Source: a virus (lineage: Duplodnaviria > Heunggongvirae > Uroviricota > Caudoviricetes). From it: 9,880 bases of DNA. Shown piece by piece: positions 2,581-5,699 of this stretch (position 1 is its first letter; each line of letters opens with the position of its first letter). The notes under the pieces are model-generated. The model did not search any database. It worked only from the letters and a program-made list of their open reading frames with translations, and had not been told where the DNA came from. The stretch is taken from the IMG/VR virus record IMGVR_UViG_2740892274_000003; one strand, given 5' to 3'. The translations under genes and the position numbers were made by a program.

Positions 2581-2610
2581 TTGACCAGACACATTGTCCG
2601 GGGCTATATT
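2581..2610 (+). promoter_or_regulatory. candidate sigma70 late promoter (PR'-like): TTGACC-18-TATATT
   Basis: -35 TTGACC at 2581-2586 and -10 TATATT at 2605-2610, starting 5 nt after the Q stop. A small hairpin (CGCCAG/CTGGCG, 2618-2635) lies in the initial transcribed region. Confidence 0.35.
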
Positions 2611-2671
2611 CCTCACGCGCCAGCAAAATCTGGCGTCGGGATTGGAACCCCGGATAGAGACCGCGACAGAC

Positions 2672-2693
2672 ACACGCCGCGAGCGTGTTTTTT
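2672..2693 (+). terminator. candidate intrinsic terminator (tR'-like)
   Basis: Stem ACACGC (2672-2677) / GCGTGT (2683-2688), 5-nt loop, followed by TTTTT(A)TT at 2689-2696. Confidence 0.4.
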
Positions 2694-2821
2694 ATTGTCG
2701 TATGCACGCGCACATCTGAATTATGGTGGGGCGCATGGGGGAGCTGAAAAGCTCGCCGGTCGGTTTCCCGGTAGTTCCAACCCTGTGCGTCTCACCACCC
2801 GATGATTGGAACCTGACGGTG

Positions 2822-2850
2822 TTGACAGTTTCAGGTTTGCAGTTTACATT
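2822..2850 (+). promoter_or_regulatory. alternative candidate sigma70 promoter: TTGACA-17-TACATT
   Basis: Consensus -35 TTGACA at 2822-2827, 17-nt spacer, -10 TACATT at 2845-2850 with the key T, A and final T positions conserved. Could be the true PR' or a promoter for the downstream cargo gene. Confidence 0.3.
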
Positions 2851-2885
2851 TCCCCGCGGTGCTCAAAACACCTCGAAAGCGGTAT

Positions 2886-2913
2886 CCACACCCGATAGCC
2901 ATGTGGTTTTTTT
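2886..2913 (+). terminator. weak terminator-like hairpin plus T7 tract
   Basis: CCACA (2886-2890) / TGTGG (2902-2906) with an 11-nt loop, followed by TTTTTTT at 2907-2913. Confidence 0.25.
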
Positions 2914-3056
2914 GTGTCCAGAATTCTTGGTTTATGACCGGGTGTGCGGCTAATACAATACCAGCAATGGAAATACGCCCGCCGACTTTCGACGGTTTTG
3001 AGCGCCCGGTCACCCTCTCAAAAGGGGTAAATCAAAATATTCGAAAGGACATGTCT

Positions 3057-3620
3057 ATGAATCGCACGTCTATTGAAAAACTCCCGTCACTTACGCATAA
3101 CCATCTTCCTGTCATGACAACAGAGCTGCTGGCTGATTTGTACGGAACAGAGCGCCAGCGTTTGACAAACAATTTCAATCGAAACAAAGAACGGTTTATA
3201 GAAGGTAAACATTTTTTCCTGATAGAAGGTGATGCGTTACGAGAGTTGAAGAACGAAAACTCTTTAAGAGTTTCTGTGAAAATTGCCCGTAACGTTCGCT
3301 CCCTCATCCTCTGGACAGAACGTGGCGCAGCCCGTCACGCCAAAATGCTCGAAACCGATCAGGCGTGGGAAGTGTTCGAAAAACTGGAAGACTGTTATTT
3401 CAACCAGAAACAGCCACCAGCGGCACAAAACACATCTATCGAAAATGATGGATGCGCATTACTGAGCCACTTCGATAAACACGGTCAGGTTGAGTTCACG
3501 GAAAAGGTACCCGCCGATGCGATGGTATGTACTCTGGAACGGTTTAAATTTTATCTGGAGCAACACGGGTGGATCGTTGCCCGTAAAGAGCAACTGGTGG
3601 AGCGGTTGATGCGGTTTTAA
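3057..3620 (+). CDS. ORF6N-domain (KilA-N-related, predicted DNA-binding) protein with an unassigned C-terminal domain; late-region cargo
   Basis: N-terminal region LPVMTTELLADLYGTERQRLTNNFNRNKERFIEGKHFFL ... ILWTERGAARHAKML fits the ORF6N pattern (LYG..RLN..RN.ERF...F.L...WTE.GA) as I recall it. ATG 3057 has AAGGA 8 nt upstream; ATG 3051 is an alternative. The longer GTG-2859 ORF has an implausible N-terminal extension. The C-terminal 70 aa are not recognisable. Confidence 0.7.
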   Translation: MNRTSIEKLPSLTHNHLPVMTTELLADLYGTERQRLTNNFNRNKERFIEGKHFFLIEGDALRELKNENSLRVSVKIARNVRSLILWTERGAARHAKMLETDQAWEVFEKLEDCYFNQKQPPAAQNTSIENDGCALLSHFDKHGQVEFTEKVPADAMVCTLERFKFYLEQHGWIVARKEQLVERLMRF

Positions 3621-3696
3621 AAATTTTTTCCGAAAACTTTACGATCGTAAAAAGTTGAATATCCTGTTAAGAGTGGTTACTACGCCACACAGCTTA

Positions 3697-3721
3697 AACC
3701 CGCCGATGAGCGGGTTTTTTT
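3697..3721 (+). terminator. rho-independent terminator after the ORF6N gene
   Basis: Stem AACCCGC (3697-3703) / GCGGGTT (3710-3716), loop CGATGA, then a T-run through 3721. Confidence 0.6.
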
Positions 3722-3771
3722 ATACCTGAAAAACGGCACAGGACGTTAAACGTGCTGGTGGTCAGATGAGT

Positions 3772-3800
3772 TTGCAGATGTGATGACATATGGTTATTAT
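3772..3800 (+). promoter_or_regulatory. candidate promoter for the tRNA cluster: TTGCAG-17-TATTAT
   Basis: -35 TTGCAG at 3772-3777 and -10 TATTAT at 3795-3800; predicted start about 3 nt before the first tRNA at 3810. Confidence 0.35.
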
Positions 3801-3809
3801 TCTGCCTCC

Positions 3810-3886
3810 GGCCCTTTAGCTCAGTTGGTCAGAGCGAGCGACTCATAATCGCCAGGTCGCTGGTTCAAGTCCAGCAAGGGCCACCA
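3810..3886 (+). tRNA. tRNA with anticodon CAT, most like tRNA-Ile2 (ileX/ileZ type); automated tools would likely label it Met
   Basis: Cloverleaf traced by hand: acceptor GGCCCTT/AAGGGCC, anticodon loop CTCATAA, T-loop TTCAAGT, discriminator A, encoded CCA. Anticodon stem-loop GCGACTCATAATCGC resembles E. coli ileX from memory. Confidence 0.85.
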
Positions 3887-3887
3887 A

Positions 3888-3964
3888 CCACCACTAGCTC
3901 ATCCGGATAGAGCATCAACCTTCTAAGTTGACGGTGCGAGGTTCGAGTCCTCGGTGGTGGGCCA
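3888..3964 (+). tRNA. tRNA-Arg (anticodon TCT, reads AGA)
   Basis: Acceptor CCACCAC/GTGGTGG (unusual C1-G72), anticodon arm TCAAC-CTTCTAA-GTTGA, T-arm CGAGG-TTCGAGT-CCTCG, discriminator G, encoded CCA. Confidence 0.8.
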
Positions 3965-3966
3965 GC

Positions 3967-4042
<76 letters not shown>

Positions 4043-4045
4043 TAT

Positions 4046-4120
<75 letters not shown>

Positions 4121-4733
4121 GCGAGATTTGAGACGAAGGTTGTTATTTGCACTGACACAATATTGTGTGGGAATGTCTGACTCCTTACCATCTCCTGTTC
4201 TGTGATGTTGTTTTGTTGCAGTTCCAGTGCTCTTTTTTCAGCACCAGAATGGTGCATTGTCGGTCAGGTTACGTAGTGAACCTCTGGCAGGGGACTGATG
4301 ATTCATCATTCTGGTGTTGTAAATATCTCTTCGGACAACTTACAAAATATTCTAAGCAAACCCCGGGAACACACTCTTAACTGCCTTGGCTGGCGGTTTT
4401 TTGTACAGTGCTCGGTATGTGTGAGCTGGAAATCAGATTTTGCATGGACTGGAATCATGCTGTTATTTAGGGGCGAAGAACTGGCTTTTTCTTCCGCCTT
4501 CTCACCAGTAACGATTAGAAAAATAATGAAATGCCCCCCTCCGGGGAGGAGGACCGTAGAAAAAAGGACCCGCCAGCAAAAACATTGGGGATGAACAGCT
4601 TTCGCTACTCAGATTGCTGGCGGGTAAAGTTCCTCATGAATTAAGAATGCTACGCGATCTTTTTTAATGGAAATGAAAATTATTGTCAATTAGTCGTGCG
4701 TGTTTTTTCATACAATATTGGTAAAGGTGATTC

Positions 4734-4768
4734 AGGCCATCAGAGTTTTGCTGATGGCCTTTTTTCTT
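4734..4768 (+). terminator. strong rho-independent terminator immediately upstream of the holin
   Basis: Perfect stem AGGCCATCAG (4734-4743) / CTGATGGCCT (4751-4760), 7-nt loop, then TTTTT(C)TTT. Confidence 0.65.
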
Positions 4769-4800
4769 TCCGATAGCACAGGTCTGTCGGGGGGCGGGAT

Positions 4801-5016
4801 ATGTATCAGATGGAAAAAATATCAACAGGCATTGCCTACGGCACCTCCGCCGGCAGTGCCGGCTACTGGTTTTTGCAGTGGTTGGATCAGGTCAGTCCAT
4901 CACAGTGGGCTGCGATTGGTGTGCTGGGAAGTCTGCTTCTGGGGCTTCTGACTTATCTGACAAATCTGTATTTCAAAATAAGAGAAGACAAGCGTAAGGC
5001 TGCGAGAGGTGAATAA
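4801..5016 (+). CDS. S: class II holin (phage 21 S21-type pinholin), dual-start motif
   Basis: 71 aa; [66 protein letters not shown] matches the S21 pinholin from memory. Two in-frame starts (M1, M4). Stop overlaps the endolysin ATG (TAATG). Confidence 0.9.
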
Positions 5017-5171
5017 TGTCGCCATCATTACGCAAGGCTGTTGCAGCTGCTATTGGTGGTGGGGCTGTTGCTATAGCATCTGTGTTAATCACTGGCCCAG
5101 GTGGTAACGATGGTCTGGAAGGTGTCAGCTACATACCATACAAAGATATCATTGGTGTATGGACTGTATGT
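5016..5171 (+). CDS. R: SAR endolysin (phage 21 R21-type lysozyme), 5' part only; remainder lost in the N run
   Basis: N-terminal 52 aa: Gly/Ala-rich SAR membrane segment ([18 protein letters not shown]) followed by [23 protein letters not shown], which carries the E-D-T catalytic triad spacing known for R21. The sequence runs into N at 5172. Confidence 0.8.
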
Positions 5172-5522
5172 NNNNNNNNNNNNNNNNNNNNNNNNNNNNN
5201 NNNNNNNNNNNNNNNNNNNNNNNNNNNNNNNNNNNNNNNNNNNNNNNNNNNNNNNNNNNNNNNNNNNNNNNNNNNNNNNNNNNNNNNNNNNNNNNNNNNN
5301 NNNNNNNNNNNNNNNNNNNNNNNNNNNNNNNNNNNNNNNNNNNNNNNNNNNNNNNNNNNNNNNNNNNNNNNNNNNNNNNNNNNNNNNNNNNNNNNNNNNN
5401 NNNNNNNNNNNNNNNNNNNNNNNNNNNNNNNNNNNNNNNNNNNNNNNNNNNNNNNNNNNNNNNNNNNNNNNNNNNNNNNNNNNNNNNNNNNNNNNNNNNN
5501 NNNNNNNNNNNNNNNNNNNNNN
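5172..5522. other. assembly gap / masked region (351 N)
   Basis: Continuous run of n. Removes the 3' two-thirds of the endolysin and the 5' parts of Rz and Rz1. Every six-frame ORF crossing it is an artefact. Confidence 0.99.
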
Positions 5523-5699
5523 GCAGTCTGTCAGTCAGTGCGTGAAGCCACCACCGCCTCCGGCGTGGATAATGCAACCAGCCCCCGACTGGCAGACACC
5601 GCTGAACGGGATTATTTCACCCTCAGAGAGCGGCTGATGACGATGCAGATGCAACTGGAAGGGGCACAGGAGTATATCCGCACTCAGTGCATTAAGTAG
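5523..5699 (+). CDS. Rz: Rz i-spanin, C-terminal 58 codons (start lies in the gap)
   Basis: AVCQSVREATTASGVDNATSPRLADTAERDYFTLRERLMTMQMQLEGAQEYIRTQCIK is near-identical to the lambda Rz C-terminus as I remember it. Confidence 0.8.
   Translation, partial: AVCQSVREATTASGVDNATSPRLADTAERDYFTLRERLMTMQMQLEGAQEYIRTQCIK
5524..5637 (+). CDS. Rz1: Rz1 o-spanin, C-terminal part, embedded in the +1 frame of Rz (start lies in the gap)
   Basis: QSVSQCVKPPPPPAWIMQPAPDWQTPLNGIISPSESG, proline-rich, matches the lambda Rz1 C-terminus from memory; nested inside Rz as expected. Confidence 0.75.
   Translation, partial: QSVSQCVKPPPPPAWIMQPAPDWQTPLNGIISPSESG

What the first reader, a model, noticed from the sequence alone, without database searches (positions are those of the whole stretch)
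4556..4689. Candidate antisense small transcript: minus-strand promoter-like TTGACA-17-TAAAAA and a 12-bp stem followed by a minus-strand T-tract
A perfect 12-bp inverted repeat (ACCCGCCAGCAA 4568-4579 / TTGCTGGCGGGT 4614-4625) is followed on the minus strand by TTTTTT (plus-strand AAAAAA at 4560-4565). On the minus strand a consensus -35 TTGACA (plus 4684-4689) sits 17 nt from TAAAAA (plus 4661-4666). Together these would give a transcript of about 95 nt running opposite to the late operon. Caveats: the -10 lacks the conserved final T and the terminator loop is 34 nt, so this is a weak but specific prediction.
Basis: partly seen in the sequence, partly recalled or inferred. Interest (0 to 1): 0.45.

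Follow-up and report, generated by a model that had tools for sequence, protein, structure and literature searches.

The report
Unannotated Esr41-like prophage small RNA gene
The flagged hairpin and promoter-like site are real, and they most likely form a small, unannotated regulatory RNA gene in a lambda-like prophage. It is a diverged relative of the known E. coli sRNA Esr41, so it is a candidate of a known kind rather than a new kind of element.

Summary

**What supports a small RNA gene**
- The 12-bp inverted repeat is the longest in the window.
- TTGACA at 4689-4684 is the only one on the minus strand.
- Across five haplotypes that differ by 15-29% in their flanks, the T-tract plus stem-loop and the -35/spacer/-10 block are the best-conserved parts of the 350-bp module. 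Variable columns are 11/74 in the core against 117/287 in the flanks (p = 2e-5).
- The same shell is found in a cassette of Stx2 prophage Sp5: TTGACA, 17 nt, TAAAAA, a body of about 80-95 nt, a CCGCCAGC/GCUGGCGG stem and a U-tract.
- That Sp5 cassette matches Rfam Esr41 below threshold. All three sequences align collinearly with bona fide Esr41, a validated Hfq-dependent sRNA.
- The position and orientation, antisense between the moron region and a P21-type holin, match those of PasA, AsxR and AgvB.

**What limits the claim**
- There is no expression evidence and no covariation.
- The -10 lacks the final T.
- The window does not hit the Esr41 model.
- The Esr41 5' hairpin and U/C-rich segment are absent.

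**Verdict:** a probable new, diverged member of a known kind of prophage sRNA. The module holding it matches 26% of complete E. coli genomes, including virulence plasmids where it lies next to iss. Its function and targets are unknown.

The parts
4684..4689 (-). -35 hexamer TTGACA
   Evidence: Read directly. It is the only TTGACA on the minus strand of the window. It is invariant in all 20 distinct homologous sequences and identical in the Sp5 cassette and in Esr41.
4667..4683 (-). 17-nt promoter spacer
   Evidence: No insertions or deletions in any haplotype. The Sp5 cassette and Esr41 have the same 17-nt spacing.
4661..4666 (-). -10-like hexamer TAAAAA (weak, lacks the final T)
   Evidence: Read. 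It is kept in all haplotypes except TAAAAG in the AR_451-type haplotype. It is identical in the Sp5 cassette. The local alignment of the two regions spans exactly 4661-4689. In alignment A4 it aligns with Esr41's TTATAT.
4653..4655 (-). Predicted transcription start (inferred)
   Evidence: It lies 6-8 nt downstream of the -10. By analogy, the Esr41 5' end lies 6 nt after its -10, and the PasA 5' end lies 7 nt after TCAGAA, which follows TTGACA by 17 nt. It was not measured.
4626..4652 (-). 5' single-stranded, more variable part of the predicted RNA (GUAGCAUUCUUAAUUCAUGAGGAACUUU)
   Evidence: Unpaired in the fold. 16 of 33 alignment columns vary across 4628-4660, which also takes in the discriminator between the -10 and the start. 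It aligns loosely with Esr41 AUUUUCUCCAUGGGGUAUUC.
4614..4625 (-). 5' arm of the terminator stem in the RNA (ACCCGCCAGCAA)
   Evidence: In six distinct sequences, 10 of 12 pairs never vary, one changes A-U to G-U, and one is broken (C-A) in the plasmid haplotype.
4592..4611 (-). Inner hairpin UGAGUAGC-GAAA-GCUGUUCA inside the terminator loop
   Evidence: It includes G-U and U-G pairs that are possible only on the minus strand. It corresponds to an insertion relative to the 8-11-nt loops of Esr41 and the Sp5 cassette.
4580..4591 (-). Unpaired C-rich segment of the loop (UCCCCAAUGUUU)
   Evidence: Unpaired in the folds. The 34-nt loop as a whole shows a mean pairwise difference of 0.097.
4568..4579 (-). 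3' arm of the terminator stem in the RNA (UUGCUGGCGGGU)
   Evidence: Invariant in the five haplotypes. GCUGGCG is shared with the Sp5 cassette and Esr41.
4560..4565 (-). U-tract (UUUUUU) that ends the predicted RNA of about 95 nt
   Evidence: Read. Invariant. The other haplotypes read UUCUUUUUU directly after the stem.
4533..4554 (-). Second minus-strand hairpin followed by AUUUCAUUAUUUUU, a possible back-up terminator (uncertain)
   Evidence: Reported by the terminator scan on the minus strand. It is poorly conserved, with a mean pairwise difference of 0.29. PasA likewise has a minor read-through form that ends at a second terminator.
4734..4768 (+). Context: plus-strand intrinsic terminator just upstream of the holin start at 4801. 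It marks the right end of the conserved module.
   Evidence: It is the top terminator-like site. Variants keep pairing through U-G wobbles that work on the plus strand only. In the plasmid and ExPEC-remnant loci, homology ends right after it, where IS200-type STnc490 hits begin.

Best explanation
The segment 4560-4689 is a self-contained small-RNA gene on the minus strand of a lambdoid prophage. It lies in the 'moron' region between the Q/tRNA block and the P21-type holin.

Proposed mechanism:
- A sigma-70-type promoter (TTGACA, 17 nt, TAAAAA) starts transcription near 4654.
- The RNA runs about 95 nt and ends at an intrinsic terminator made of the 12-bp stem and the U-tract at 4565-4560.
- The gene is a diverged relative of the Esr41 family of horizontally acquired E. 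coli sRNAs. It keeps the promoter and terminator shell. Its single-stranded 5' segment differs, and it carries an extra hairpin inserted in the terminator loop.
- Like other sRNAs at this kind of locus (Esr41, PasA/PasC, AsxR, AgvB), it most likely binds Hfq through its U-tail and acts in trans on host or phage RNAs. Its targets are unknown.

What is shown: the sequence features, their conservation, the shared shell and the synteny. What is inferred: transcription, the ends of the RNA, Hfq binding and trans action.
For: 1. The features are exact and unlikely by chance.

2. The element occurs in 1427 of 5426 complete E. coli genomes and in Shigella, and in no other species representative. Five haplotypes differ by 15-29% in their flanks. 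The T-tract plus stem-loop differs by only 6.6%, with 11/74 variable columns against 117/287 in the flanks (Fisher p = 2e-5). The promoter block has 4/29 variable columns and the 5' body 16/33.

3. A covariance model built from the RNA body alone gave a weak hit in Sakai prophage Sp5. A homologous promoter block lies next to that hit at the right distance and in the right orientation. The best local alignment of the two regions spans exactly the -10 to the -35: 24/29 identical for the B haplotype, a score not reached in 1000 resamples.

4. Rfam Esr41 matches the Sp5 cassette over its full length at E = 0.0018. True Esr41 has TTGACA, 17 nt, TTATAT and a mapped 5' end 6 nt further on. All three cassettes align collinearly. 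Whole-cassette alignment scores against shuffles give z = 7.4-9.5 for window or B against Sp5, z = 7.7 for Sp5 against Esr41, and z = 4.2-4.6 for window or B against Esr41.

5. Esr41 is a validated Hfq-dependent trans-acting sRNA (PMC5286369).

6. PasA is Northern-verified and Hfq-dependent. It sits on the antisense strand between a moron gene and a class II holin, with TTGACA, 17 nt and TCAGAA 7 nt before its 5' end.

7. In the B-type locus the cassette is convergent with an STnc100 gene. This is the arrangement of convergent sRNAs at the moron site described by Tree et al. 2014 (PMC4104026).

8. The inner hairpin needs G-U pairs available only on the minus strand, and only the minus strand has a U-tract.
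Against: - No expression data are available for this sequence.
- The -10 (TAAAAA, or TAAAAG in the commonest chromosomal haplotype) lacks the highly conserved final T.
- There is no compensatory change in any of 20 pairs. One variant (C4617T, plasmid type) breaks a pair on the minus strand but gives a G-U pair on the plus strand.
- Folding energies do not separate the strands.
- The window and its haplotypes give no Esr41 hit even at E <= 10.
- Esr41's 5' hairpin and U/C-rich segment are missing.
- The related Sp5 cassette is not among the 63 Hfq-bound candidate sRNAs listed for Sakai. That list excluded sites within 100 bp of genes.
- Most copies lie in decayed prophage remnants and plasmids, so part of the conservation could be hitch-hiking.
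Confidence: 0.55

Rival explanations
1. The same short minus-strand RNA is made, but it works in cis. It is fully complementary to the untranslated leader of the late transcript, 140-240 nt upstream of the holin start. It could pair with leaky or Q-antiterminated late RNA and trigger cleavage or interference, much as lambda OOP RNA does for cII. That would add a safety lock on lysis genes in the lysogen.
For: - The orientation is opposite to Q, the tRNAs, the holin and the terminase.
- The cassette sits between two plus-strand terminators (4379-4398 and 4734-4760) that already insulate the holin.
- No trans target site was found near neighbouring start codons.
Against: - The overlapped plus-strand region is non-coding and far from the holin ribosome-binding site.
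- Most copies, about 640 on plasmids and several hundred in ExPEC chromosomal remnants, have lost the holin downstream through an IS200 insertion. They still keep the promoter and terminator.
- The relatives Esr41, PasA, AsxR and AgvB act in trans.
Confidence: 0.12
2. The cassette is a decaying, silent relic of an Esr41-like gene. The -10 has degenerated, little or no RNA is made, and the apparent conservation reflects recent common ancestry or recombination between prophages rather than selection.
For: - The -10 is weak, and TAAAAG is the form in the commonest chromosomal haplotype.
- There is no covariation.
- The family is confined to Escherichia and Shigella.
- Most copies lie in prophage remnants.
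- The Sp5 relative is absent from the Sakai Hfq-CRAC list.
Against: - Within the same 350-bp module, divergence is 3-4 times lower in the stem-loop and promoter block than in the flanks (p = 2e-5). Uniform decay does not predict this.
- The -35, the 17-nt spacing and the -10 hexamer are retained in two cassettes whose bodies have diverged beyond recognition.
Confidence: 0.2
3. The conserved stem-loop acts on the plus strand or as DNA. It could be a structured element of the late mRNA leader (a processing or stability site) or a protein-binding inverted repeat. On this reading the minus-strand promoter-like motif is incidental.
For: - The plus-strand RNA folds almost as well (-30.3 kcal/mol).
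- The plasmid variant C4617T keeps pairing only on the plus strand.
Against: - No U-tract follows the stem on the plus strand.
- The inner hairpin has two A-C mismatches on the plus strand.
- The 34-nt spacing between arms is unlike an operator.
- The promoter block is conserved together with the stem in an otherwise unrelated cassette.
- One variant (T4615C) keeps pairing only on the minus strand.
Confidence: 0.08

Closest known systems
Esr41 (Rfam RF02676), an EHEC island-encoded Hfq-dependent sRNA (Sudo et al. 2014; Waters et al. 2017, PMC5286369)
   Same: - Identical -35 (TTGACA), a 17-nt spacer, and the -10 in the same register.
- A short body of 74-95 nt.
- Terminator arms CGCC(G/A)GCA / UGCUGGCG followed by a U-tract.
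- A collinear alignment with above-shuffle similarity, bridged by the Sp5 cassette.
- Horizontally acquired and confined to Escherichia and Shigella.
   Different: - No hit to the Rfam model, even at E <= 10.
- It lacks Esr41's 5' hairpin GAUGCUCUAGGCAUC and the segment UUUUCUCCAUGGGG. The window has UUAAUUCAUGAGGAAC there instead.
- The terminator loop is 34 nt with an inner hairpin, against 8 nt in Esr41.
- The -10 is TAAAAA, not TTATAT.
- It lies in a lambdoid late region, not in SpLE1.
Unnamed Esr41-like cassette of Stx2 prophage Sp5 (Sakai NC_002695.2, about 1272084-1272203, minus strand, between ECs_5706 and ECs_1210)
   Same: - Promoter block 22-24 of 29 nt identical, including TTGACA and TAAAAA.
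- CCGCCAGC/GCUGGCGG stem plus a U-tract.
- Same orientation relative to the late operon and the same overall length.
   Different: - The RNA body between the -10 and the stem is unrelated.
- It has a simple 9-bp stem with an 11-nt loop.
- It is followed by a small membrane-protein gene, not by a terminator and a holin.
- It is itself uncharacterised and absent from the Sakai EcOnc list.
PasA / PasC of EPEC E2348/69 (Pearl Mizrahi et al. 2021, PMC8550237; Zhu, Shabalina and Storz 2026 preprint)
   Same: - Same position and orientation: minus strand between a moron gene and a class II holin.
- TTGACA, 17 nt, a weak -10, and a 5' end 7 nt further on.
- An RNA of about 85 nt, with GCCAGC in the 5' arm of the terminator.
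   Different: No detectable homology. The covariance model of the window's RNA does not hit the PasA or PasC loci, and the alignment shares only the -35 and the GCCAGC words.
AsxR / AgvB anti-sRNAs (RF02703 / RF02702; Tree et al. 2014, PMC4104026)
   Same: - Encoded at the moron site downstream of pR', antisense to the late operon and convergent with an STnc100-type sRNA.
- A conserved 3' domain and a variable 5' part.
   Different: - No Rfam hit.
- Those RNAs are 51-60 nt with a different terminator.
- Their terminator abuts that of STnc100, whereas here the gap is about 250 nt.
Lambda OOP RNA (short cis-antisense phage RNA)
   Same: A short RNA with its own promoter and intrinsic terminator, transcribed against a major phage operon.
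   Different: OOP overlaps the 3' end of the cII coding region and acts through RNase III. Here the overlapped RNA is a non-coding leader, and no sequence similarity was seen or expected.

Membership tests
Esr41 (Rfam RF02676) | Reaches the Rfam gathering score (102 bits) for the covariance model | tested here: not met
   There is no Esr41 match at E <= 10 in window 4100-4820 or in the B, D and E haplotype loci. The Sp5 intermediate reaches 28.1 bits at E = 0.0018. True Esr41 scores 108.6 bits.
Esr41 (Rfam RF02676) | Own promoter with TTGACA, a 17-nt spacer and a -10, and the RNA 5' end 6-7 nt downstream | tested here: met
   At the sequence level, the -35 is identical, the spacer length is the same, and the -10 is in the same register in alignment A4. 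The -10 is weaker (TAAAAA). The start site itself was not measured.
Esr41 (Rfam RF02676) | GC-rich terminator CGCCGGCA...UGCUGGCG followed by a long U-tract | tested here: met
   The arms CCCGCCAGCAA / UUGCUGGCGGG align with those of Esr41, and a U6 (or UUCU6) tail follows. The loop is enlarged from 8 to 34 nt.
Esr41 (Rfam RF02676) | 5' hairpin and the single-stranded U/C-rich segment UUUUCUCCAUGGGG. My own recollection, not checked here, is that this segment is the target-pairing region. | tested here: not met
   The hairpin is absent, and the aligned segment reads UUAAUUCAUGAGGAAC.
Esr41 (Rfam RF02676) | Hfq-dependent stability and trans repression of targets (chuA, cirA, bfr) | not testable with these tools
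   Needs Northern blots in an hfq mutant, RIL-seq or CLASH, or reporter fusions (PMC5286369).
PasA/PasC | Antisense-oriented sRNA gene between the moron region and a class II holin of a lambdoid prophage | tested here: met
   In the window, the holin (PF04971) is at 4801-5016 on the plus strand and the cassette is on the minus strand. In E2348/69, PasA (743499-743415, minus) lies upstream of the holin at 743713.
PasA/PasC | Sequence and structure homology to PasA or PasC | tested here: not met
   Model R1 gives no hit in L084 or L085 at E <= 10. Alignment A2 is anchored only by TTGACA and GCCAGC.
AsxR/AgvB anti-sRNAs | Match to RF02703 or RF02702, a length of 51-60 nt, and the conserved 42-nt 3' domain | tested here: not met
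   No hit. As a positive control, AsxR is found in Sakai Sp5 at 88.1 bits.
Intrinsic (Rho-independent) terminator | Stable GC-rich stem followed directly by a U-tract on the transcribed strand | tested here: met
   The stem has 12 bp with 8 G-C pairs. The hairpin folds at -28.8 kcal/mol. U6 begins 2 nt after the stem. It is atypical because of the 34-nt structured loop, which is why the scan missed it.
Type I toxin-antitoxin (divergent sRNA plus small toxic membrane protein) | A conserved small hydrophobic ORF next to the sRNA, with sRNA complementarity to its mRNA | tested here: not met
   The plus-strand mini-ORF starting at 4668 is 8 aa in three haplotypes, 16 aa in one and open in another. 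Duplex energies of the sRNA with the holin or ECs_1210 start regions do not exceed shuffles.

The most novel reading that the evidence does not exclude
The cassette is an active, re-targeted paralogue of Esr41. Its conserved, enlarged terminator-loop domain and new 5' segment would give it a distinct regulon.

It sits in about a quarter of complete E. coli genomes, including roughly 640 plasmid records. In the plasmid loci inspected it lies beside iss, and in one of them near iroB. Esr41 controls the siderophore and colicin receptor CirA. This RNA could therefore link virulence-plasmid or prophage carriage to host iron uptake, colicin sensitivity or serum-resistance traits in extraintestinal pathogenic E. 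coli.
Probability: 0.12. Interest if true: 0.6.

Novelty: new member of a known kind. Interest (0 to 1): 0.38.

Why it matters
- **An annotation gap.** The element is unannotated in RefSeq and absent from Rfam. A 211-nt query spanning it matches 1427 of 5426 complete E. coli genomes, covering at least 80% of the query in 1422. It is also in Shigella, and it appears in about 640 plasmid records; in those inspected it lies next to iss.
- **A possible evolutionary mechanism.** If the element is expressed, it adds a third branch (window type, Sp5 type, Esr41) to a family of mobile sRNA cassettes. These keep a promoter-terminator shell while the target-pairing body is swapped. That would be a concrete example of how prophage sRNAs diversify.
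- **Directly testable.** The candidate comes with precise predicted ends.
- **Not surprising in kind.** Antisense-oriented Hfq sRNAs at the moron site upstream of the lysis genes are already well documented.

Tried and rejected
1. **Known RNA family at the site.** Rfam gathering and E <= 10 scans gave no credible hit in 4120-4800. There is no tRNA there.

2. **Sequenced phages.** No match to the INPHARED phage collection, near or distant.

3. **Homology to PasA/PasC.** Rejected.

4. **Other ACCCGCCAGC...GCTGGCGGGT hairpins.** Hairpins in unrelated viral contigs (L076, L077, L080) were selected by the stem pattern itself. They have unrelated contexts, so they were not counted as homologues.

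5. **Covariation test.** Uninformative: no double changes in any of 20 pairs.

6. **Strand call from folding energy.** Inconclusive.

7. **Type I toxin-antitoxin idea.** Rejected: the mini-ORF is not conserved and there is no complementarity.

8. **A 10-codon ORF in the minus RNA.** It starts at 4639 (MRNFTRQQSE) and stays in frame in all haplotypes, but it has no Shine-Dalgarno sequence and lies in the indel-free stem. I treated it as incidental.

9. **Plus-strand sRNA ending at the 4734-4760 terminator.** No conserved plus-strand promoter was found. The weak Rfam hits there (SgrS, MicA, FopS and others) reflect the terminator.

10. **Trans targets within the window.** Nothing beyond chance. 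The best duplex, near 1792, has p of about 0.02 for one of 11 sites tested.

11. **EcOnc10/11/12 of Sakai.** These lie downstream of Rz, not at this locus.

12. **Literature search by Sakai locus tags.** Nothing relevant.

Full report
**Context**

The window is the regulatory and late region of a lambdoid prophage, read on the plus strand. In order it contains:
- a DnaB-type helicase (43-1575)
- RusA (1829-2200)
- antiterminator Q (2169-2576, PF06530)
- an isrK/C4-type RNA cluster and an ORF6N antirepressor-like gene (2604-3620)
- four tRNA genes (3810-4120)
- about 680 bp without genes
- a P21-type holin (4801-5016)
- an HNH endonuclease, the terminase subunits and the portal gene

The finding lies in the gene-free stretch, about 115-245 nt upstream of the holin.

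**Observation**

- a perfect 12-bp inverted repeat, 4568-4579 and 4614-4625, with a 34-nt loop
- plus-strand A6 at 4560-4565, which is U6 on the minus strand two bases after the stem
- minus-strand TTGACA at 4689-4684
- minus-strand TAAAAA at 4666-4661, after a 17-nt spacer

The repeat is the longest perfect inverted repeat in the window. Only 3.75% of Markov resamples of the window hold one that long. The TTGACA is the only one on the minus strand. The minus-strand RNA folds at -32.4 kcal/mol, z = -3.1.

The loop is not unstructured. It contains an 8-bp hairpin with a GAAA loop, and its two G-U pairs exist only in the minus-strand RNA.

**Distribution and conservation**

- The module from about 4420 to 4770 has no match in sequenced phages.
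- A query from the middle of it (4520-4730) matches 1427 of 5426 complete E. coli genomes. About 915 places are chromosomal and about 640 are on plasmids.
- In the plasmid loci inspected it lies next to iss, and in one of them also near iroB.
- Among species representatives it is found only in E. coli and Shigella flexneri.
- No record annotates anything there except, in some records, a doubtful 63-aa ORF. That frame is broken by insertions and deletions between haplotypes.

Five haplotypes differ by 15-29% in their flanks. The T-tract plus stem-loop differs by only 6.6%. Variable alignment columns are:

| Region | Variable columns |
|---|---|
| T-tract plus stem-loop (core) | 11 of 74 |
| Flanks | 117 of 287 |
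| Promoter block | 4 of 29 |
| Predicted 5' body | 16 of 33 |

The difference between core and flanks gives Fisher p = 2e-5.

TGTCAA is invariant in all 20 distinct sequences and the 17-nt spacer has no insertions or deletions.

There is no covariation. Of the two single changes in the stem, one favours each strand.

**Relatives**

I built a covariance model from the predicted RNA body only.
- It found no PasA or PasC locus.
- It gave a weak hit in Stx2 prophage Sp5 of strain Sakai.

At that Sp5 site the sequence reads, on the minus strand: TTGACA, 17 nt, TAAAAA, an unrelated body of about 50 nt, a CCGCCAGCG/CGCUGGCGG stem, then U8.

The best local alignment between the window region and the Sp5 region spans exactly the -10 to the -35 (window 4661-4689). 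For the B haplotype, 24 of 29 positions are identical, a score not reached in 1000 resamples. The promoter was not part of the model, so this is independent evidence that the promoter and the terminator belong to one unit.

Rfam's Esr41 model matches the Sp5 cassette over its full length, but below threshold (28 bits, E = 0.0018).

Bona fide Esr41 in SpLE1 has TTGACA, 17 nt, TTATAT, and its 5' end 6 nt further on.

A seven-sequence alignment is collinear from the -35 to the U-tract. Whole-cassette alignment scores exceed shuffles:

| Comparison | z |
|---|---|
| Window or B type vs Sp5 | 7.4-9.5 |
| Sp5 vs Esr41 | 7.7 |
| Window or B type vs Esr41 | 4.2-4.6 |

Relative to both relatives, the window's terminator loop carries an insertion of about 20 nt. 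That insertion forms the inner hairpin.

**Precedent for the locus**

- Tree et al. 2014 showed that lambdoid prophages of EHEC carry convergent Hfq-bound sRNAs at the moron site downstream of pR'.
- In the B-type locus the cassette is indeed convergent with an STnc100 gene.
- In EPEC E2348/69, PasA is Northern-verified and Hfq-dependent. It lies on the antisense strand between a moron gene and a class II holin. Its mapped 5' end lies 7 nt after TCAGAA, which follows TTGACA by 17 nt. A perfect -35 with a poor -10 is therefore compatible with an expressed sRNA at this position.
- Esr41 itself is a validated trans-acting regulator of chuA, cirA and bfr.

**Interpretation**

The best-supported reading is a self-contained minus-strand sRNA gene of about 95 nt. 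It is a diverged Esr41-family member with a different 5' segment, and it probably acts in trans. I put this at about 0.55.

Alternatives:
- The same RNA acts in cis on the late leader (0.12).
- The cassette is a silent relic (0.20).
- It is a plus-strand or DNA element (0.08).

The main weaknesses are these:
- There is no expression evidence.
- The -10 is weak.
- There is no covariation.
- The window does not meet the Rfam Esr41 model, and Esr41's 5' hairpin and U/C-rich segment are missing.
- The Sp5 relative is absent from the Sakai Hfq-CRAC list.

I found no target. Complementarity to neighbouring start regions is not above chance.

**Novelty**

This is a probable new and unannotated member of a known kind, prophage moron-site sRNAs related to Esr41. 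It is widespread and precisely testable, but not surprising in kind.

Noticed in passing
window 4196-4222 (+): CTGTTCTGTGATGTTGTTTTGTTGCAG shares an exact 11-mer (4201-4211) with the GcvB sequence fetched. By hand alignment, 17 of 18 positions match the G/U-rich segment that I recall as the R1 seed. It lies in the 260-nt trailer after tRNA-Gly, before the plus-strand terminator at 4379-4398. It could be a GcvB-seed mimic on the plus strand or, if the minus strand is transcribed, an AgvB-like GcvB sponge. The Rfam GcvB and AgvB models do not hit it. I saw no minus-strand promoter or terminator by eye. This trailer occurs in only 9 complete E. coli genomes.
   Followed up: partly
window 4235-4323: A long imperfect hairpin with 31-nt arms, 77% complementary, and a 27-nt loop in the tRNA trailer. 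It accounts for several spurious microRNA-family hits. Its function is unknown.
   Followed up: no
window 2581-3019 (+): Directly after Q (2169-2576) comes a 10/12 promoter match (2581-2610). It is followed by Rfam hits above threshold to c4-a1b1 (2604-2656), isrK (2617-2693, with its own terminator), C4 antisense RNA (2719-2802) and sRNA-Xcc1 (2936-3019). The last overlaps an ORF6N antirepressor-like gene (2859-3620). This looks like a P1/P7-type or Gifsy-1-type C4/IsrK-antirepressor module placed at the start of the late operon.
   Followed up: partly
window 5172-5522: A run of 351 N (masked sequence) inside the lysis region. ORFs listed across it, such as 5016-5699, are not interpretable.
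   Followed up: no
window 3810-4120 (+): Four tightly packed tRNA genes with anticodons CAT, TCT, TGT and TCC. The first is called Met by ARAGORN but is annotated tRNA-Ile in the near-identical E. coli record. A promoter-like site lies at 3771-3800 and a tR'-like terminator at 3696-3717.
   Followed up: no
L106 5585-5704 (Sakai NC_002695.2, about 1272084-1272203, minus strand): An uncharacterised Esr41-like cassette in Stx2 prophage Sp5, between ECs_5706 and the 59-aa membrane-protein gene ECs_1210. It is conserved in 26 distinct sequence variants from about 40 Stx-phage-like viral contigs. It is not in the Tree et al. 2014 sRNA list.
   Followed up: partly
L006 3237-3358 and L004 856-978: In the iss-adjacent plasmid haplotype and the commonest ExPEC chromosomal haplotype, homology to the window ends right after the plus-strand terminator. 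There, STnc490 hits above the Rfam threshold begin. I read these as an IS200-type insertion, because the same family sits next to an IS200 tnpA in E2348/69. The insertion would have replaced the holin side of the module.
   Followed up: partly
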